DNA from: a virus | Lineage: Duplodnaviria > Heunggongvirae > Uroviricota > Caudoviricetes | Virus record (IMG/VR): IMGVR_UViG_2718217859_000011 | Span: 1 to 64,000 of that record | DNA length: 64,000 bases | Direction: 5' to 3' (one strand) | In this document: one piece after another, positions 34,915-41,026 of the stretch | How the letters are laid out: each line of letters begins with the position of its first letter | Position numbering within the stretch: position 1 is the stretch's first letter | Made by a program: the position numbers and the translations under genes | The notes under the pieces: generated by a model | Told to the model about the DNA's origin: nothing | Databases searched by the model: none | Seen by the model: only the letters and a program-made list of their open reading frames with translations

Positions 34915-35310
34915 TTACCGAGTTGCTAATTTGCAACTCGCTTTTTCGTACTTACTGATAGTGATCTCGACCTTACCTTCCGGGATAACCGGTCCCCACT
35001 CCACCAGCATTCTTTTCACCTGACTGTCGTCTTCCCACACCCCCGCGTGGGTCAGGGCGTCAAACAGCGCCTTGTTATAGTTGTCCAGATCGCGGATCCG
35101 GTTATCCGGAGGAAACAACACGATCTCCACTGAAGCAGGTGCCGACGTTGGTTTCGGCAGACGACGTAACTGCTCAACTATTGCTGCGCACGCCGCGCTC
35201 TGGAATTTTCGCCCCGCCGCGCTTATCAGGCTCTTACCAGCAAACGCCCCTTTGTTGGGGTGTCGCCAGTACGTGTTCACGCTGGGCGGGAAAGGCAGTA
35301 TTAGCTTCAT
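34915..35310 (-). CDS. RusA-family resolvase, second copy
   Basis: 131 aa; NTYWRH...DNRIRDLDNY...DALT...DDSQ motifs; paralogue of 32031..32405. Confidence 0.8.
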   Translation of the reverse strand: MKLILPFPPSVNTYWRHPNKGAFAGKSLISAAGRKFQSAACAAIVEQLRRLPKPTSAPASVEIVLFPPDNRIRDLDNYNKALFDALTHAGVWEDDSQVKRMLVEWGPVIPEGKVEITISKYEKASCKLATR

Positions 35311-35633
35311 ACTTTCAGGCCCCTCTCATGTAACCAGTGGGTTGCACGCAGCCTGGCGTTTTCCTCACCGGCAAGCAGTGAGCGGATAATCCCGACCGCC
35401 TCGCTGTCGTCGTCCTTCATCGCAGTATGAAGCGTTATCCCCCGGGCCACGCCACGCTTTATCGTGATGACGCCTTTTTTCTCCAGTGCGCGAAGATGCT
35501 CCACCGCTGCATTCACTGAACGGTATCCCAGCATGGTTGCCACCTCCTGATTGGTTGGCGGGAAGCCACGTTCTTGCTGGTAAGAAATCAGCATATCCAG
35601 CACCTGCTGCTGACATTGAGTTAACGTCGTCAT
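35307..35633 (-). CDS. LexA N-terminal DNA-binding-domain paralogue lacking the S24 peptidase domain
   Basis: MTTLTQCQQQVLDMLISYQQERGFPPTNQEVATMLGYRSVNAAVEHLRALEKKGVI aligns to recalled LexA residues 1-70; only ~45 aa follow; start overlaps upstream stop (TGATG). Confidence 0.6.
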   Translation of the reverse strand: MTTLTQCQQQVLDMLISYQQERGFPPTNQEVATMLGYRSVNAAVEHLRALEKKGVITIKRGVARGITLHTAMKDDDSEAVGIIRSLLAGEENARLRATHWLHERGLKV

Positions 35634-36127
35634 TAAGCCCCCACGTAATTCCCTGACAGATACCATTCATCACCCGATACAGCGCGCTTGCTGCTTTTCC
35701 GTAAGCACCGCTCACGACGCGCCAGAAAATTGTTTCGTTCTGGCTGGGAGTGGCTTTCACGGAATGCCTCCATCCACACCGTTGCAGCTCGACGGAATAA
35801 GCTCCTAGACTCCAGTTCTTCAGCCTGGCGGGTCAGGCACAAAATCACCCGGGGGTCGTTAGTGCCGACATAGAAATTGCGCACAGGTCTGGTTTCACGA
35901 ACAGATTGTGGTTCCGGCTCCTGCGCTCTCTCAGTCAGGCGCGGGAAATGTCTGCGTGTATCTCCTTCACAACGGTGAGCCACACGCCCACTCTGACGTA
36001 ACTTGCTTGCTGACTGCAGAACGCGCTGCCGTGAGTAACCAGCAAAAGCATCCGCAATGTCTCCGGAAGTACACCCCGGATGGGCTTCAATGAATTTCTG
36101 AACTTCATTCAAAAGACTCATAATCAC
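35633..36127 (-). CDS. hypothetical protein, possibly PerC-like regulator
   Basis: 164 aa; C-terminal segment ESRSLFRRAATVWMEAF...RRERCLRK loosely resembles PerC/Pch family. Confidence 0.35.
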   Translation of the reverse strand: MIMSLLNEVQKFIEAHPGCTSGDIADAFAGYSRQRVLQSASKLRQSGRVAHRCEGDTRRHFPRLTERAQEPEPQSVRETRPVRNFYVGTNDPRVILCLTRQAEELESRSLFRRAATVWMEAFRESHSQPERNNFLARRERCLRKSSKRAVSGDEWYLSGNYVGA

Positions 36128-36720
36128 CCCCTGAATCCTGCCGGGATCTGGCTGTAGTCCACGTTGTCGTAACTGGCTTTGAAGTACGGGTCCTCGCGTC
36201 TGGCTGCAGATACTGCAGGAACTTCCCAGGATTCTTCGAAATGACGATCCGGACCAAAGAACGTGACAGCCTGTTTCACAAATTGTGTGCCGCTGTTACC
36301 CATCGCAGATACCCAGCCCGCGTAGCGTTTCACACCTTCCAGCATGGTTTCGGGGTTTACCCCCTCATTCAAACGGGCTTTCCAGGCTTTGAAGGCTGCA
36401 GATTTTAAATTGCCACCAGCACGTTTGGGATAGGCCAGCCATGCCTGCTCAAACTCCGGAGAGTATTCCGGTCGGTTTGAACGAACTCGCACAGACTCAT
36501 CAGCAGATGCACCAACAGCTATTGGTTCATTGACTGGTTCTTTGACTGGTTCAAAAGAGTGACTGGTTCTGGGTGAATCTCCTGCACTACCCCCTGGTGC
36601 AACTCCTGCACTACCTGGTGAATTTGCTGCACCAGATAGTGAATTATTTGCACTACCCCCTAGTGAATCTCCTGCACCATCAAGATGAAGGAGATAGATA
36701 TTACTTGTGTGGGGTAGTGA
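36124..36720 (-). pseudogene. 5'-truncated ORF remnant (unknown lambdoid gene) cut at the Mu-like junction
   Basis: Frame stays open for 76 codons upstream of the tracked GTG start (36492) with no start codon, ending two codons inside Mu-like DNA; Gly/Ser/Ala/Pro-rich repeats then a C-terminal domain. Confidence 0.4.
36531..36681. repeat. tandem direct repeats (3x TGACTGGTTC; ~5x 21-24-bp units)
   Basis: CATTGACTGGTTC / TTTGACTGGTTC / GAGTGACTGGTTC followed by GGTGAATCTCCTGCACTACCCCCT-like units. Confidence 0.6.
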
Positions 36721-36723
36721 TCA

Positions 36724-36859
36724 ATTCTGGGCGGACTTAGTGCAGCCTGGTAGAACCAGCAAGCCTTGTGTGGCGCGGGGTGTGGTGATTTAGTGTGATT
36801 CTGGGCGGATTTGTGAGAAATGACCAAAAACGCTTTTTTTTGCGCTTTTTTCTGGGCGC
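36724..36859 (+). promoter_or_regulatory. putative transposase end-binding repeats (three TTCTGGGCG motifs)
   Basis: TTCTGGGCGG at ~36725 and ~36799, TTCTGGGCGC at ~36850, within 140 bp of the inferred left end; spacing resembles Mu L1-L3. Confidence 0.35.
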
Positions 36860-37019
36860 TTTTGATCTGGTTCTGCTACAAACTTAACGGGTTTTAAATG
36901 CTTTTAAAAAAGTGTTTTATCCTTACCCGTTTTCCTCAATTTGTTCTCATCTGTGTGTTCGGTTTTGTTGTGGTTATTGCTGATTAGCTAACAGCACACG
37001 CCCCGCCAAAACGAGGCGC

Positions 37020-37682
37020 TTATGCTGATTTCTTGTTTACAGGCTTAGTTTCTTGCTCCGGTGTGACGGGAACGCGATCACCTGGTGTTCCAGCACAGAA
37101 AATAGCTTTGGCGCGGCGCAAAATCTCTTTGTCATTTTCCTCATCGCCAGCTAATGCCATGCAAACAGCGTCTTTAAGCGATTGCCTGATGTTCAGGCTT
37201 TGAATGGCCTTCCTTTGTTCCTCAAGTTCGCTATCGGCTTGCTTGGTTTGCCTGGTGGGTTGCTGTAGGCGTTCAAGGACTCCTTTGATGCCAATACAAC
37301 ACAGCATATCAATAAGACGCTCTCTATCTTCTGGAGTAGCTCGCCTTAGTATTTCATCGACAATACTTGTGTTTGGGCGGTTAACGTCTTCTGTAGGCAC
37401 CTTTTTTTCTATTATTGGATCACGATCGCCCTCACCGTAGACCAGCCATTCCAGTGATACATTCTCTAATTTTGCTATCGTAGCGACCACATTTAGGCCG
37501 GGAGTGGTGCCTTTCTCAAAGTAGTTATTTATGGTCGAGTACGGCAACCCCCAGTCTGAGGTGGCTTTACGCAGACTCCTAGTGCCAACCAGTTGCTTGA
37601 TTCTGTCCTGAATGCTTTCTTTTCTATTCTGAGAAAAGGAAAAATCATCGGCGGTTTGTTTACTCACTTTCTTTCCTCTCAA
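37020..37682 (-). CDS. putative Mu-like repressor (c-like)
   Basis: 220 aa, transcribed leftward as first gene of the element, divergent from ner; HTH-like segment LRKATSDWGLPYSTINNYFEKG; assignment mostly by position. Confidence 0.5.
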   Translation of the reverse strand: MRGKKVSKQTADDFSFSQNRKESIQDRIKQLVGTRSLRKATSDWGLPYSTINNYFEKGTTPGLNVVATIAKLENVSLEWLVYGEGDRDPIIEKKVPTEDVNRPNTSIVDEILRRATPEDRERLIDMLCCIGIKGVLERLQQPTRQTKQADSELEEQRKAIQSLNIRQSLKDAVCMALAGDEENDKEILRRAKAIFCAGTPGDRVPVTPEQETKPVNKKSA

Positions 37683-37787
37683 TCTATTGATTTACAACAC
37701 ATTTCTACAAAAAGACTTTCTTTTCACCAAAGCAAGAAAAGAAAGCTTGTAATTTTCTATTTATGGATCAATACTTATATCCGAAGG

Positions 37788-37807
37788 GATAACACGGCGG
37801 TGTTATC
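37788..37807. promoter_or_regulatory. operator-like palindrome between repressor and ner
   Basis: Perfect inverted repeat GATAACACGGCGGTGTTATC plus a third GATAAC half-site 7 bp downstream, ~30 bp before the ner start. Confidence 0.4.
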
Positions 37808-37835
37808 CGCACGGATAACTTTTAAGGGTAACCTA

Positions 37836-38072
37836 ATGATGGTTAGAAATGAAGTAATGAACAAAGACTGGCACCGCGAGTACATCGTTGCCGCTGTGCA
37901 CACCAAAGGTTTTACATTGCGTGAACTTTCTGAACGCGCTGGTCTAAAAAAAGACTCTTTAAAAAATGCACTGTATCGCTCATGCCCTAAATATGAACGC
38001 ATCATAGCCGATGCTATTGGTGTGGAACCTGCGGAGATCTGGCCAAGCCGGTATGCCAGTAAGGCGGCGTAA
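37836..38072 (+). CDS. ner: DNA-binding protein Ner
   Basis: 78 aa; DWHREYIVAAV...SLKNAL...IIADAIGVEPAEIWPSRY recalled as Mu Ner-like. Confidence 0.8.
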   Translation: MMVRNEVMNKDWHREYIVAAVHTKGFTLRELSERAGLKKDSLKNALYRSCPKYERIIADAIGVEPAEIWPSRYASKAA

Positions 38073-40114
38073 TGTTTTATTCAGCCAATGAGCTGGCCGG
38101 TCTTCCTGGTTTGCCCGGTACAGTTCAGGGGGTGCGCTGGACGCTCAATCGGATCACAGATACGCACCCGGAATGGAAGCGCAAGCGCGAAGGCACCAAA
38201 GCATTCGAGTATCACATCGACTGCCTGCCCGCTGAAGCGCAGAAAGTTTTACGTAAGCGCCTGACCCATCAGGTTCTGGAAGATGCACAACTGCCCGCCG
38301 TGGTTGAGCAGAAGGCAGTTAAAAACGTCGCCGTTCGCGATGAACTGGAAGTGATGGTCAAATGCCCGGAACTGGCATTACGCGAAGTCCAGGCACTGAC
38401 CGACAAGCAAAAGGCCATTGCTGATGCGCGGATATTGCTGGCTACTGAAGTGCATAAACTGCGTGAATACGCCGGAATGACCAGGAAGGCCGCGTTAAAG
38501 CACATCGTTGATGGTGTGCGCATGGGGGCGTTGCCTGACCGCATTATCGAAGCAGCGAATACTGCAAATGCACGTCAGGGAAAGCGAACCGGTGTCAGCA
38601 CCGGCAGCCTGGATAGCTGGTACTCCAGCTGGGTGATGGCGCGCGGTGATGCCAATCAGTTACTGGCGTTACTGGCTCCCGGTCATCATAAGGGAACACC
38701 GTGGGAGCAGGTCTGGTGGTTGAGCGATTTCTTTATGTTCTATCGCTCATGGAAGCGCCCGACCGTTGAATATGCGTATCGCGAGTTTTCAGCCTGGTGG
38801 CATGAGAAGCACGCGAACGATGCGGGAATGCTGGCGGCACTGCCTTCCGTTCACGCAGTAAGACGGGTATTAAGCAGTGTCCCGGTGATTGTTAAGGAGC
38901 GTTTCCGCTCCACCGGTTCAGCCTGGCGTTCGCTCAATCCCTTTGTGCGACGCGACTGGAGCACATTACCGGTTAATGCGGTATGGGTCGGGGATGGTCA
39001 CTGTATGAAACTGATGGCATTCAGCCCTGCCACCGGGAATACATTCCGGCCAGAAGTGACGCTGGTTATGGATGCAGGACAACGCTTTATTGTGGGCTGG
39101 TCGCTGTCCCTGTCGGAGAACGTGGTGGCCGTTGCTGATGCATTGCGTCATGGCATGTCACAACACGGAATACCGCTGATTTATTACTCCGATAACGGGG
39201 GCGGTGAAAAAAACCGGGTGCTTGATGCCGATATTACCGGGATTTTGCCCCGGCTGGGTGTGGAACATCACACGGGGATACCAGGTAACCCGCAGGGGCG
39301 CGGGGTAATAGAACGGGCAAACAAAGGAATACCCAAAGATGTGGCTCTGAGTTTCCAGACGTACTGCTCAAAAAATGCAGACAAGGAAACGGTGATGATG
39401 CAGCAACGCATCACACAGTCAGCCATTAAGGCCACCCACAAAGGGAAGGAGCTGACAAAGCGGCAGGTTAAAGCAATGGGAGAAGTCCCCACCTTTGAGC
39501 AATTGATGGCCGCAATAGAGCTGGAGGTAAAACGGTATAACAACCGCCCACACAGCAGCCTTCCCCGCAAAGAGGATGGCGAACATTACAGCCCGGCAGC
39601 GTATCGCCGGAAACTGATAAAAGAGCAGAAAGCTGAAATCGACATGCTGTCGCCGGAAGAACTTCACGAAATGTTCCGACCGGAAAGCATCTGCACAGTG
39701 CGACGCGGTGAAGTGGTGTTATTCAGAAACATCTATTTCTCCACAGAACTGGCAGCAGAGCACGGAAATGAAGTCAGGGTTTGTTACGACATTCACGACG
39801 CAAACAGCGTGATTGTCAGGCGGATGGACGGTTCTTATATCTGCGATGCCATCTGGAACGGTAACAAGGTTGATGCGTTCCCTAAAGCTGTTATCGAACA
39901 ACAGCAGGAGAAACGCACCAGAGGCCGCATTGCACGGGCCGCGCAGAAAATCGAAGAGGCTAAACGCGAGCTTACTCCGGCTATTACGCAGAAACCTGAC
40001 TTTAATTTTGGATTTGGTCTGGAGCGCCCGGAGAAAAAGGAAAAAGAAGAACTTTATTTATTCGCATCTGAACGCGAACGCAATTTAAAGAAAAACGGCA
40101 CAAACAACCGTTAA
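38072..40114 (+). CDS. A: Mu-type DDE transposase A
   Basis: 680-aa ORF after ner; size and organisation as MuA. Confidence 0.9.
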   Translation: MFYSANELAGLPGLPGTVQGVRWTLNRITDTHPEWKRKREGTKAFEYHIDCLPAEAQKVLRKRLTHQVLEDAQLPAVVEQKAVKNVAVRDELEVMVKCPELALREVQALTDKQKAIADARILLATEVHKLREYAGMTRKAALKHIVDGVRMGALPDRIIEAANTANARQGKRTGVSTGSLDSWYSSWVMARGDANQLLALLAPGHHKGTPWEQVWWLSDFFMFYRSWKRPTVEYAYREFSAWWHEKHANDAGMLAALPSVHAVRRVLSSVPVIVKERFRSTGSAWRSLNPFVRRDWSTLPVNAVWVGDGHCMKLMAFSPATGNTFRPEVTLVMDAGQRFIVGWSLSLSENVVAVADALRHGMSQHGIPLIYYSDNGGGEKNRVLDADITGILPRLGVEHHTGIPGNPQGRGVIERANKGIPKDVALSFQTYCSKNADKETVMMQQRITQSAIKATHKGKELTKRQVKAMGEVPTFEQLMAAIELEVKRYNNRPHSSLPRKEDGEHYSPAAYRRKLIKEQKAEIDMLSPEELHEMFRPESICTVRRGEVVLFRNIYFSTELAAEHGNEVRVCYDIHDANSVIVRRMDGSYICDAIWNGNKVDAFPKAVIEQQQEKRTRGRIARAAQKIEEAKRELTPAITQKPDFNFGFGLERPEKKEKEELYLFASERERNLKKNGTNNR

Positions 40115-40132
40115 TTTAAAAGGTATTTAATT

Positions 40133-41026
40133 ATGAGTTTAATTACGCAATTAAATGACGTAATGGCCCGTCGCGGCTATACGCAGACCCACGTCGCCCG
40201 TGCTATTGGTCGTAGCAGCGCCGTTATCAGCCAGTATTTGCAGGGTAAATATCAGGGCGATATGTCTGATATTGAAGAACGCATTTCTGCCTTTGTGACC
40301 CGTGAGCGGGAAAAAGAAAACAGCCGCCGTATTAAAGCAAAGTTTGTGACCACCGGTATGGCTGCCAAAGGACTGGAGGTGCTGGCCTACGCTCACCTGG
40401 AATGTGAAATCTGTGTGCTGTATGGCGCAGCAGGTCTTGGCAAAACAATGATTCTGCGTGAATACGCCGCCAGAAACCGGGATGCGGTCCTGATTGAAGC
40501 CGACCCGGGCTATACAGCCAGAACACTGCTTGAGGAGCTGTGCCGCCAGCTGGGGGTAAAAGTTCGCGGCAATATCCACGAACTGATTGATGCATGTGTG
40601 CGAGAACTGCGTGATTCCGGTCGTCTGCTGATGGTGGACGAGGCTGAACTGCTCCCCTATCGCGCACTGGAGGTTCTGCGCCGTCTGCATGACAAAGCGG
40701 GTATCGGGGTTGTTCTGGCGGGTATGCCTCGCCTTCTGATTAACCTCAAGGGGCGTCGTGGTGAGTTCGCCCAGTTATACAGCCGCGTGGCGCTGGCGCT
40801 TAACCTGGGCGATACGTTGTCGCAGGAAGATTTTAACCAGATAGCTACCGGGTTGATGCCGGAAGCAGCAGAGCCGGAAATCAGCGAGGCGCTTTATACA
40901 CGTTCGCTGGGTAATGCCCGCCGTCTGTTCAAGCTGGCGCGTGGTGTGTACCGGATTTGTGATATCAGCGATGCGCCGGTCAGTGTGCAGGCCATTGATA
41001 AATTCGCAGAAATGTTAATTCACTGA
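40133..41026 (+). CDS. B: transposition ATPase B (AAA+)
   Basis: 297 aa; N-terminal HTH, Walker A GAAGLGKT, Walker B LLMVDEAE. Confidence 0.9.
   Translation: MSLITQLNDVMARRGYTQTHVARAIGRSSAVISQYLQGKYQGDMSDIEERISAFVTREREKENSRRIKAKFVTTGMAAKGLEVLAYAHLECEICVLYGAAGLGKTMILREYAARNRDAVLIEADPGYTARTLLEELCRQLGVKVRGNIHELIDACVRELRDSGRLLMVDEAELLPYRALEVLRRLHDKAGIGVVLAGMPRLLINLKGRRGEFAQLYSRVALALNLGDTLSQEDFNQIATGLMPEAAEPEISEALYTRSLGNARRLFKLARGVYRICDISDAPVSVQAIDKFAEMLIH

What the first reader, a model, noticed from the sequence alone, without database searches (positions are those of the whole stretch)
36124..36720. Start-less repeat-containing ORF with tandem DNA repeats at the Mu junction
The ORF upstream of the PerC-like gene encodes Gly/Ser/Ala/Pro-rich and EPVK/EPVN repeats followed by a ~120-aa C-terminal domain. 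The DNA carries 3 copies of TGACTGGTTC and ~5 copies of a 21-24-bp unit. Repeats inside the linker of a lambdoid replication initiator are how lambda ori iterons are arranged (recalled), so this may be the 3' part of an O-like gene with its origin, cut by the Mu-like insertion. Identity of the C-terminal domain is unknown to me.
Basis: inference. Interest (0 to 1): 0.45.

Follow-up and report, generated by a model that had tools for sequence, protein, structure and literature searches.

The report
Phage replication gene cut by Mu
This is the tail end of a prophage's replication-initiator gene, still carrying the phage's replication origin (five initiator-binding repeats plus an AT-rich element) inside its coding sequence, and cut off from its start by a Mu-like transposable phage; a known kind of feature, so fairly ordinary.

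Summary
On the minus strand, 36707..36124 is the 3' 584 nt (residues 80-272 plus stop) of a 272-aa initiator gene that is 99.6% identical to Shigella phage SfV orf39 'replication protein'. Homology to intact copies stops at 36707. A Mu-like prophage begins at 36708, so the first 235 nt, which encode the winged-helix DNA-binding domain, lie outside the window.

The 21-24-bp repeats are five copies of a dyad-symmetric 15-19-bp site, T-R-GTGCA-N5-TKCAC-Y-A. In relatives from Pseudomonas, Aeromonas, Shewanella and others, the same DNA site recurs 3-5 times at the same place in the gene. There it is spaced 21-24 bp apart, sits in either orientation and in two reading frames, and encodes 59 different peptides. 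Relatives with a different predicted recognition helix carry different repeats. This is the signature of lambda-type iterons, not of a peptide repeat.

The GAACCAGTCA repeats belong to a roughly 50-bp, locally AT-rich element that starts 2 bp after the last iteron. Its synonymous sites are almost frozen: 93% codon identity against 42% in the N-domain. The C-terminal domain remains unidentified. This is a new member of a known kind, of modest interest.

The parts
36124..36707 (-). 3' remnant of an SfV-orf39-type (O-like) replication initiator gene. It covers the 2nd and 3rd bases of codon 79 through codon 272, plus the stop codon. The first 235 nt of the gene are missing.
   Evidence: Near base-for-base alignment with the intact 819-nt UTI89 gene up to 36707. 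99.6% protein identity to SfV orf39. PHROG 270 and other replication-initiator families.
36708..36720 (-). This sequence comes from the Mu-like left end and merely stays in frame after the TGA at 36723-36721.
   Evidence: Mu-like homology in other genomes starts at 36708.
36663..36677 (-). Iteron 1 core, GTGCAGGAGATTCAC (gene nt 266-280).
36639..36653 (-). Iteron 2 core, GTGCAAATAATTCAC (gene nt 290-304).
36618..36632 (-). Iteron 3 core, GTGCAGCAAATTCAC (gene nt 311-325).
36597..36611 (.). Iteron 4 core, GTGCAGGAGTTGCAC, a perfect GTGCA/TGCAC inverted repeat (gene nt 332-346).
   Evidence: where it matches on both strands.
36573..36587 (-). Iteron 5 core, GTGCAGGAGATTCAC (gene nt 356-370).
36519..36570 (-). 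Conserved, locally AT-rich element AGAACCAGTCACTCTTTTGAACCAGTCAAAGAACCAGTCAATGAACCAATAG. It contains the 3 GAACCAGTCA copies, encodes RTSHSFEPVKEPVNEP, and starts 2 bp after iteron 5. It is the candidate DNA-unwinding or helicase-entry region.
   Evidence: 3 exact copies. (synonymous sites 93% conserved against 42% in the N-domain). (a 2-bp gap after the last iteron in 36 of 38 loci). (the largest local AT excess, averaged over 57 loci).
36127..36492 (-). C-terminal domain of 122 aa, the equivalent of E. coli K-12 YfdO. Its fold and partner are unknown. GTG 36492 is the first standard start codon.
   Evidence: PHROG 26426, 3729 and 1701. No Pfam, NCBIfam or PDB match. AlphaFold2 pLDDT 58, mostly helical.
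36708..36830 (+). Left end of the Mu-like transposable prophage. It starts 5'-TGTGGGGTAGTG and has two exact ATTCTGGGCGGA terminal repeats at 36724 and 36798.
37020..41026 (.). Early genes of the Mu-like prophage: repressor (37682..37020, minus strand), Ner-like (37836-38072), MuA transposase (38072-40114) and a MuB-like AAA+ ATPase (40133-41026).
   Evidence: Pfam Phage_CI_repr, HTH_35, HTH_Tnp_Mu_1 plus Mu-transpos_C, and AAA_22.
35633..36127 (-). PerC-like gene (yfdN type) immediately downstream. Its ATG overlaps the initiator gene's stop codon.
   Evidence: Pfam PF06069. Same gene order in UTI89, SfV and K-12.

Best explanation
The interval is the promoter-distal two thirds of the single replication-initiator gene of an SfV/CPS-53-type lambdoid prophage. 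The prophage's replication origin is embedded in the coding sequence, as in lambda gene O.

In the intact gene, residues 1-85 form a winged-helix (HTH_36) domain. Dimers of that domain are inferred to bind five dyad-symmetric iterons (T-R-GTGCA-N5-TKCAC-Y-A, spaced 21-24 bp) that double as the codons of a Gly/Ser/Ala/Pro-rich linker. Two base pairs after the last iteron lies a roughly 50-bp, locally AT-rich element with GAACCAGTCA repeats. It is inferred to be where the duplex is opened and the helicase enters. The C-terminal domain of about 120 aa is inferred to recruit the replicative helicase. In SfV-type phages this would be the host's DnaB-DnaC, because no phage loader gene follows.

In this genome a Mu-like transposable phage inserted after gene nt 235 (junction 36707|36708). 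That separates the promoter and the DNA-binding domain, about 36 kb away and outside the window, from the iterons, the AT-rich element and the C-terminal domain. No full-length initiator can be made, so the lambdoid prophage should be unable to fire its own origin. What remains is an orphan origin plus a start-less gene fragment.

Shown here: the truncation, the junction, family membership, DNA-level conservation of the repeats, and their covariation with the recognition helix. Inferred: initiator binding, unwinding at the element, and helicase recruitment by the C-terminal domain.
For: Truncation and junction
- The intact 819-nt gene in UTI89 is identical to the window from the stop codon up to 36707 except for one base, and unrelated beyond.
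- One hit (H29) is 100% identical over query 1-584, which ends at 36707.
- Mu-like left-end homology in other E. coli genomes begins at 36708, at many unrelated insertion sites.
- The same element in strain Ec55 splits ypdF and is about 35.8 kb long. The right end here is therefore near 72.5 kb, which explains why the 5' part of the gene is absent from the window.
- MuA, MuB-like, Ner-like, Mu portal, Mu F, tail sheath and tape-measure genes are present.

Initiator identity
- 99.6% identity to SfV orf39 'replication protein'.
- PHROG 270, 8540 and 391; HTH_36, with a weak DnaD_N match.
- It sits in the O slot, after the cro and cII-like genes and before the nin-like genes and Q.
- Stx phage 24B's annotated O belongs to the same family.
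- Homologues are followed by DnaC-like plus DnaB-like genes, a Toprim-helicase, or a lambda-P-like gene.

Iterons
- 5 sites in the window against 0.38 expected.
- The same site occurs 3-5 times at gene nt ~265-375 in loci from Enterobacterales, Pseudomonas, Aeromonas, Shewanella, Marinomonas and others.
- In 38 non-redundant loci there are 168 sites: 82 forward, 62 palindromic, 24 reversed. 28 lie in another reading frame. Spacings are 21, 22, 23 or 24 bp, and 59 different hexapeptides are encoded.
- Relatives with other recognition helices carry other repeats at the same position. S[KR]RSV[MI]xH goes with GTGCA, DRSTVRKH with TGTAGGCC, GRSTVK[LS]H with GTGGGGCA, and SKSAVREH with TGCCG..CGGCA.

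AT-rich element
- Codon identity at conserved residues is 92.6% (441/476), against 41.6% (997/2398) in the N-domain.
- The element starts 2 bp after the last iteron in 36 of 38 loci.
- It shows the largest local AT excess, +16 points, averaged over 57 loci.

Precedent
- Lambda, P22 and phage L initiator genes contain their iterons (PMC8022706).
- The lambdoid ori consists of iterons plus an AT-rich tract in the middle of O (PMC7466680).
Against: - No experiment shows that this family's repeats bind the protein or support replication.
- The protein does not match lambda O's Pfam family even at E<=1.
- The 'AT-rich' element is only about 55-60% AT here, with GC 0.43-0.45 over 36500-36589.
- In the E. 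coli copy all repeat periods are multiples of 3. The window alone therefore cannot separate DNA sites from peptide repeats, and the argument rests on other genomes.
- The comparison loci are phylogenetically related, so the Fisher P value overstates independence.
- SfV-type phages have no P, DnaC or helicase gene next to the initiator.
- The C-terminal domain could not be assigned a fold, so the helicase-recruitment step is a guess.
- The right Mu end, the target-site duplication and the 5' gene fragment were not seen.
Confidence: 0.85

Rival explanations
1. The repeats are ordinary coding repeats. They would reflect a low-complexity flexible Gly/Ser/Ala/Pro linker and an EPVx tandem peptide that expand and contract by slippage, with no function as DNA.
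For: In the window and in close E. coli relatives every period is a multiple of 3 (24, 21, 21, 24 and 12 bp). Copy number varies in frame among E. coli proteins, which range from 242 to 302 aa. The linker is predicted to be disordered (pLDDT below 50 at the N-terminal end of the model).
Against: The DNA site is conserved where the peptide is not. It occurs in reversed orientation (24 of 168) and in a shifted frame (28 of 168), at 22- and 23-bp spacings, and encodes 59 different hexapeptides. Synonymous sites of the EPV element are 93% conserved, against 42% in the structured N-domain. The repeat sequence changes together with the recognition helix.
Confidence: 0.04
2. The fragment is a functional stand-alone gene rather than debris. 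A 122-aa YfdO-type protein would be made from GTG 36492 and serve the host, for example in oxidative-stress tolerance. The upstream repeats would be irrelevant.
For: E. coli K-12 annotates exactly this 122-aa product as YfdO. Deleting yfdO reduced survival of oxidative stress (PMC3105296). The C-terminal domain is intact and the frame is open. The Mu repressor gene is transcribed towards the fragment.
Against: No sigma-70-like promoter was found in 36000-37200. Expression was not tested. This reading is compatible with the main explanation, since an exapted remnant is still a remnant. The K-12 phenotype has not been traced to the protein. The K-12 upstream linker is a different iteron type, so conservation of the short form is not evidence of selection for it.
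Confidence: 0.15
3. The repeats are protein-binding DNA sites but not an origin. They could be autoregulatory operators of the initiator, or sites for another prophage regulator.
For: Covariation with the recognition helix shows only that the protein's own N-domain probably binds them. Winged-helix HTH_36 proteins are often annotated as transcription regulators.
Against: The gene's position, the PHROG families, and the adjacent helicase and loader genes in many genomes all point to replication. The layout of iterons spaced at about two helical turns, followed at once by a conserved AT-rich element, is the lambda ori layout (PMC7466680). Operators are not normally placed in arrays of 3-5 in the middle of the gene they regulate.
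Confidence: 0.06

Closest known systems
Bacteriophage lambda gene O with ori-lambda (and Stx-phage P27/933W variants)
   Same: The origin lies inside the initiator gene, in the linker between an N-terminal DNA-binding domain and a C-terminal helicase-recruiting domain. There are 4-6 dyad-symmetric sites of about 19 bp, spaced at about two helical turns, followed by an AT-rich tract. The N-domain and iterons are exchanged as a specificity module, and the C-terminus is swapped separately (PMC7466680, PMC8022706).
   Different: There is no detectable sequence match to lambda O's Pfam family. The iteron sequence is different. The AT-rich tract is shorter, less AT-rich, and strongly conserved in sequence. 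The SfV type has no P gene downstream.
Shigella phage SfV orf39 'replication protein' / E. coli K-12 CPS-53 yfdO
   Same: SfV orf39 is 99.6% identical to the intact form of this gene and has the same neighbours. K-12 YfdO is the same C-terminal 122 aa, likewise left as a remnant next to yfdN (PerC-like).
   Different: SfV's copy is intact. K-12's remnant has a different upstream linker and iteron type (CCGTCAAAATCTGA) and was truncated by a different event. Here the truncation is a Mu-like insertion.
Stx2 phage vB_EcoP_24B (phi24B) O protein
   Same: It has the same N-domain family and the same conserved element (AGAACCTATCACTCTTTTGAACCAGTCAATGAACC), with three 21-24-bp-spaced repeats at the same place. 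It is annotated O and is followed by a helicase annotated P.
   Different: Its iterons are GGTGGGGCAGGAGCTGCCC and its recognition helix is SRSTVKSH. It has a different C-terminal domain and partner.
P22 gene 18 and phage L gene 18 origins
   Same: These initiator genes of P22-like phages carry their own distinct repeats inside the coding region, and specificity is exchanged as a module (PMC8022706).
   Different: Neither repeat matches this one (L: 11-bp TGTCCAACGGA; P22: about 20 bp, described only as different from lambda's), and a DnaB-type helicase gene 12 follows. Homology to this protein was not tested here.

Membership tests
Lambdoid O-type initiator gene with intragenic origin | An N-terminal sequence-specific DNA-binding (winged-helix) domain | tested here: met
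   Intact homologues have HTH_36 at residues 17-67 (E=2e-11) and a weak DnaD_N match. In the window itself this part has been removed by the insertion.
Lambdoid O-type initiator gene with intragenic origin | An array of at least 3-4 similar sites of about 19 bp with internal dyad symmetry, about two helical turns apart, inside the linker-coding part of the gene | tested here: met
   Five GTGCA-N5-TKCAC sites at 36573-36677, spaced 24, 21, 21 and 24 bp, against 0.38 expected in the window.
Lambdoid O-type initiator gene with intragenic origin | The repeats are constrained as DNA, independently of the reading frame and the encoded peptide | tested here: met
   In 38 loci, 28 of 168 sites are in another frame and 24 of 168 are inverted. 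Spacings of 22 and 23 bp are common, and 59 different hexapeptides are encoded.
Lambdoid O-type initiator gene with intragenic origin | The repeat sequence covaries with the initiator's DNA-binding domain (a specificity module) | tested here: met
   Distinct recognition-helix groups carry distinct repeats at the same position in the gene.
Lambdoid O-type initiator gene with intragenic origin | An AT-rich unwinding region directly next to the iterons | tested here: inconclusive
   A conserved element starts 2 bp after the last iteron. It shows the largest local AT excess over 57 loci (+16 points). It is only about 55-60% AT in the window, and unwinding was not tested.
Lambdoid O-type initiator gene with intragenic origin | Position in the early-right operon, after cro and cII and before the nin/Q region | tested here: met
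   Gene order in UTI89 and SfV is cro-like, cII-like (YmfL, PHROG 101), Rha, initiator, PerC, RusA, Q.
Lambdoid O-type initiator gene with intragenic origin | An adjacent partner gene for helicase delivery (P, a DnaC-like loader, or the phage's own helicase) | tested here: not met
   In the window, UTI89 and SfV the next gene is PerC-like. The feature is met in other members: DnaC-like plus DnaB-like, Toprim-helicase, or lambda-P-like.
Lambdoid O-type initiator gene with intragenic origin | Sequence homology to lambda O itself (Pfam Phage_rep_O) | tested here: not met
   That family does not appear even at E<=1. The PHROG labels 'O-like' are annotations only. The gene is therefore O-like in architecture and is not filed as a lambda O orthologue.
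Lambdoid O-type initiator gene with intragenic origin | The initiator binds the repeats, and the segment supports initiator-dependent replication | not testable with these tools
   This needs EMSA or footprinting and an ori-plasmid assay.
Mu-like transposable prophage insertion | MuA-type transposase and a MuB-type ATPase next to a repressor/Ner switch at the left end | tested here: met
   HTH_Tnp_Mu_1 plus Mu-transpos_C, AAA_22, HTH_35 and Phage_CI_repr.
Mu-like transposable prophage insertion | The same element terminus (5'-TG...) is found at unrelated chromosomal sites in other genomes | tested here: met
   Left-end matches start at window 36708 inside capsid, mhpT, ypdF, RHS, TonB-receptor and other genes. 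The Ec55 copy splits ypdF.
Mu-like transposable prophage insertion | A 5-bp target-site duplication flanking the element | not testable with these tools
   The right end is expected near 72.5 kb, beyond the 64-kb window. The predicted duplication is ACTTG (36703-36707). In Ec55 the flanks share only CGCT.

The most novel reading that the evidence does not exclude
It is shared by temperate phages of Enterobacterales, Pseudomonas, Aeromonas, Shewanella, Marinomonas and others, whatever their iteron specificity or C-terminal domain. It could be a defined unwinding or helicase-entry site read in single-stranded form by the invariant part of the HTH_36 initiator, or a site for a conserved host factor. 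It would then be more than a generic AT-rich tract. As a corollary, the orphan origin plus C-terminal fragment left here, and in K-12 as yfdO, could interfere with superinfecting phages of the same replication type.
Probability: 0.25. Interest if true: 0.55.

Novelty: new member of a known kind. Interest (0 to 1): 0.35.

Why it matters
For this genome, the result explains a start-less ORF. A Mu-like phage has hopped into the replication gene of a resident SfV-type prophage, and this should have crippled the resident prophage's ability to replicate. It is a clear example of one prophage inactivating another.

More generally, the comparison defines the origin of a very widespread initiator family: the HTH_36 type, found in SfV, CPS-53/YfdO and Stx phage 24B. 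That origin consists of iteron classes that track the recognition helix, followed by an unusually conserved AT-rich element. The definition can be used to annotate origins, to predict replication-specificity groups in prophages of enterobacteria and pseudomonads, and to design ori-plasmid experiments. It does not change the known picture of lambdoid replication.

Tried and rejected
C-terminal domain
- Pfam, NCBIfam and PDB sequence searches gave nothing.
- An AlphaFold2 model from a 25-sequence alignment was poor: mean pLDDT 58, pTM 0.44, four helices.
- Foldseek of that model against the PDB gave no match better than E=3, so no fold is claimed.
- A second profile search meant to deepen the alignment returned only close full-length relatives and did not help.
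- The PHROG labels 'DnaD-like helicase loader' and 'primosomal protein' on the C-terminal part were not taken as independent evidence. They describe whole mosaic proteins.

Missing half of the gene
- A search for the 5' part in the window found nothing, even at 3 mismatches.
- No complete E. coli genome in the collection carries this junction, so the target-site duplication could not be checked.
- In Ec55 the flanks of the same element share only 4 bp (CGCT) rather than a clean 5 bp. This was left unresolved.

Other checks
- Megablast of the Mu-like early region against the phage collection found no match.
- The promoter scan of 36000-37200 found no sigma-70-like site, so expression of the fragment is undetermined.
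- A literature search for the conserved element's sequence found only unrelated primers.
- No paper describing this family's iterons turned up.
- DnaA-box and IHF-consensus readings of GAACCAGTCA were checked by eye and rejected as non-matching.
Full report
**1. What is there**

The ORF is on the minus strand. Read downward from 36720, the frame is open for 198 codons to the stop at 36126-36124. It is preceded by an in-frame TGA at 36723-36721. It contains no ATG, GTG or TTG until the GTG at 36492.

Its product begins with a Gly/Ser/Ala/Pro-rich stretch, then SHSFEPVKEPVNEP, then about 122 residues of ordinary-looking sequence.

Tandem Repeats Finder reports 4.6 copies of a 24-bp unit at 36573-36677 and 2.6 copies of a 12-bp unit at 36523-36553. 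The next gene downstream, 36127..35633, is PerC-like.

**2. It is a gene fragment, and the break is a Mu-like phage end**

Megablast against complete E. coli genomes finds the segment in 2708 of 5426 genomes. The best matches all stop at window 36707-36710. Hit H29 is 100% identical over query 1-584, which ends at 36707.

In UTI89 the corresponding gene is 819 nt and encodes a 272-aa protein annotated 'helix-turn-helix domain-containing protein'. The pairwise alignment has a single mismatch between the stop codon and 36707, and is unrelated beyond. The window therefore lacks gene nt 1-235. Residues 1-78 and the first base of codon 79 are gone, and residues 80-272 remain.

Sequence from 36708 onward (TGTGGGGTAGTGATCAATTCTGGGCGG...) recurs in other E. 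coli genomes, starting at this same base. There it lies inside unrelated genes, including a capsid gene, mhpT, ypdF, an RHS gene and a TonB-receptor gene.

The element encodes a CI-type repressor, a Ner-like protein, a MuA transposase (HTH_Tnp_Mu_1 plus Mu-transpos_C), a MuB-like AAA+ ATPase, and Mu portal, Mu F, sheath and tape-measure proteins. Two exact ATTCTGGGCGGA repeats lie near the end, at 36724 and 36798.

In strain Ec55 the same element splits ypdF and is about 35.8 kb long. Its right end in this genome should therefore lie near 72.5 kb. This explains why the 5' part of the gene is not in the window. The target-site duplication, predicted to be ACTTG, could not be checked.

**3. The gene is a phage replication initiator**

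- The intact protein is 99.6% identical to orf39 'replication protein' of Shigella phage SfV.
- It matches PHROG 270 'replication initiation protein' (E=1e-88) and the 'O-like' families 8540 and 391 through its N-terminal part. It matches PHROG 26426, 3729 and 1701 through its C-terminal part.
- Pfam finds HTH_36 at residues 17-67 and a weak DnaD_N match. It finds nothing for the C-terminal domain and no match to lambda O's own family.
- In UTI89 and SfV the gene sits where O sits in lambda: after the cro-like and cII-like genes and before RusA and Q.
- In other genomes, homologues are followed immediately by a DnaC/IstB-like AAA+ protein plus a DnaB-like helicase, by a Toprim-helicase, or by a lambda-P-like protein.
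- The annotated O of Stx phage 24B belongs to the same family and precedes a helicase annotated P.

**4. The repeats are DNA sites, not peptide repeats**

The core of the 21-24-bp unit is GTGCA-N5-T[G/T]CAC. There are five copies in 36573-36677 against 0.38 expected in the window. Iteron 4 is a perfect GTGCA/TGCAC inverted repeat.

In the E. coli copy all spacings are multiples of three, so the window alone cannot decide the question. I therefore fetched 77 loci encoding relatives from one-genome-per-species contigs.

The same site occurs 3-5 times at gene nt ~265-375 in Enterobacterales, Pseudomonas, Aeromonas, Shewanella, Marinomonas, Microbulbifer, Wohlfahrtiimonas and Ignatzschineria. In Pseudomonas and Aeromonas the spacings are 23, 22, 21 and 24 bp, so the second site lies in a different reading frame.

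Over 38 non-redundant loci there are 168 sites:
- 82 are forward, 62 palindromic and 24 reversed.
- 28 are in the other reading frame.
- They encode 59 different hexapeptides, such as GAGDSL, VQQIHQ, SESPAP and GAPPAP.
- Positions outside the search pattern are also conserved, giving a 19-bp dyad T-R-GTGCA-GSAGM-TKCAC-Y-A.

Relatives with diverged N-domains have other repeats of the same size and spacing at the same place in the gene. The repeat type follows the predicted recognition helix:

| Recognition helix | Repeat |
|---|---|
| S[KR]RSV[MI]xH | GTGCA |
| DRSTVRKH | TGTAGGCC |
| GRSTVK[LS]H | GTGGGGCA |
| SKSAVREH | TGCCG..CGGCA |
| SRSTVKSH (phage 24B) | GGTGGGGCAGGAGCTGCCC |

This is the behaviour described for the iterons inside the initiator genes of lambda, P22 and phage L (PMC8022706; PMC7466680). 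E. coli proteins of 242-302 aa differ by whole repeat units, which amounts to variation in iteron number.

**5. The GAACCAGTCA repeats belong to a second, more conserved element**

A segment AGAAYCAGTCACTCTYYTGAACCAGTCAWWGAACC starts 2 bp after the last iteron in 36 of 38 loci. In the window it lies at 36570-36519, with one extra 12-bp copy. It is present even where the iterons are of another type.

To avoid circularity I selected loci by the peptide motif rather than by DNA. Among codons that encode the same amino acid as in UTI89:

| Region | Identical codons | Fraction |
|---|---|---|
| Element | 441 of 476 | 92.6% |
| N-domain | 997 of 2398 | 41.6% |

The odds ratio is 17.7 (one search gives the per-locus version). 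The loci are related, so the nominal P value overstates independence, but the effect is large. It also holds in the Pseudomonas loci, whose G+C is about 0.6.

Averaged over 57 loci, the element is the sharpest local AT excess within 450 bp on either side, at +16 points. In absolute terms it is only about 55-60% AT here.

Its position matches that of lambda's AT-rich unwinding tract. That it is the unwinding or helicase-entry site is an inference.

**6. The C-terminal domain**

Directly after the element, family members carry at least five unrelated C-terminal domains. The type in the window also occurs behind other N-terminal and iteron modules (L027, L066, L069, K-12).

No Pfam, NCBIfam or PDB sequence match was found for it. 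The AlphaFold2 model is weak (pLDDT 58, four helices), and Foldseek found nothing. By analogy with lambda O, I infer that the domain recruits the helicase. In SfV-type phages, which have no loader gene, this would be the host DnaB-DnaC. This is the weakest step of the argument.

E. coli K-12 yfdO is this same 122-aa domain left as a remnant in CPS-53. Its upstream linker has a different iteron type. Deleting yfdO was reported to lower oxidative-stress survival (PMC3105296).

**7. Consequence in this genome**

The insertion separates pR and the DNA-binding domain from the iterons, the AT-rich element and the C-terminal domain. No full-length initiator can be made, so the lambdoid prophage should not be able to fire its origin.

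I could not determine whether the fragment is expressed from GTG 36492. No sigma-70-like promoter was found in 36000-37200. The Mu repressor gene, however, is transcribed towards the fragment.

**8. Verdict**

The feature is a new member of a known kind.

The modest extra value lies in three results:
- a definition of this widespread family's iterons;
- the correspondence between recognition helix and iteron type;
- the unusually conserved post-iteron element, which I did not find described in the searchable literature.

Noticed in passing
window 36519-36570 (minus strand); also L002-L078 at about gene nt 370-420: A roughly 45-52-bp element (AGAAYCAGTCACTCTYYTGAACCAGTCAWWGAACC) directly after the iterons is conserved at synonymous sites (93% against 42% in the N-domain). 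This holds across Enterobacterales, Pseudomonas, Aeromonas, Shewanella and others, and it is kept even when the iteron type and the C-terminal domain differ.
   Followed up: partly
L079:9247-9620 (E. coli K-12 MG1655, upstream of yfdO): K-12 yfdO shares the C-terminal 122 aa, but its upstream non-annotated linker carries a different repeat family (CCGTCAAAATCTGA, followed by AT-rich GATCCGTCAGTAAAATCAAAACAT-like repeats). K-12 therefore holds the remnant of a different iteron-specificity module fused to the same C-terminal domain.
   Followed up: partly
proteins P0001-P0047; alignment A2: E. coli and Shigella copies of the initiator range from 242 to 302 aa. They differ by gain or loss of whole 21-24-bp units (a 22-aa deletion; 22- and 30-aa insertions) and by one extra EPVK unit. 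This amounts to natural variation in iteron copy number.
   Followed up: partly
window 36708-64000; L081 (Ec55, NZ_CP059130.1 3412594-3448402): The Mu-like prophage is about 35.8 kb in Ec55. It has no megablast match in the 50,697-record phage collection, yet it is scattered at many different sites in complete E. coli genomes. It appears to be an active but uncharacterised Mu-like phage. In Ec55 its flanks share only CGCT, not a clean 5-bp duplication.
   Followed up: partly
window 35307-36127 compared with L001:4534-6004 and L080:5822-7286: UTI89 and SfV have a Dam-type N6-adenine methyltransferase gene between the PerC-like and LexA-like genes. In the window the PerC-like gene (36127..35633) runs straight into the LexA-like gene (35666..35307), so the methyltransferase gene is absent.
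   Followed up: no
L004, L007, L033, L035, L069 (3.7-6.1 kb in each locus): The gene after the initiator varies: DnaC/IstB-like plus DnaB-like helicase, Toprim-helicase, or lambda-P-like. It does not track the initiator's C-terminal domain type in a simple way. The SfV/UTI89/window type has no such partner at all.
   Followed up: partly
L082:2501-3277 (Stx2 phage vB_EcoP_24B gene O): The annotated O of phage 24B is not lambda-O-like. It belongs to this HTH_36 family, with three GGTGGGGCAGGAGCTGCCC repeats followed by the same conserved element.
   Followed up: partly
window 36826-36863: Just inside the Mu-like left end there is a T/A-rich stretch containing terminator-like hairpins on both strands (GCGCTTTTTTCTGGGCGC; AAAAGCGCAAAAAAAAGCGTTTTT). 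It could limit read-through from the Mu repressor gene into the truncated initiator gene.
   Followed up: no
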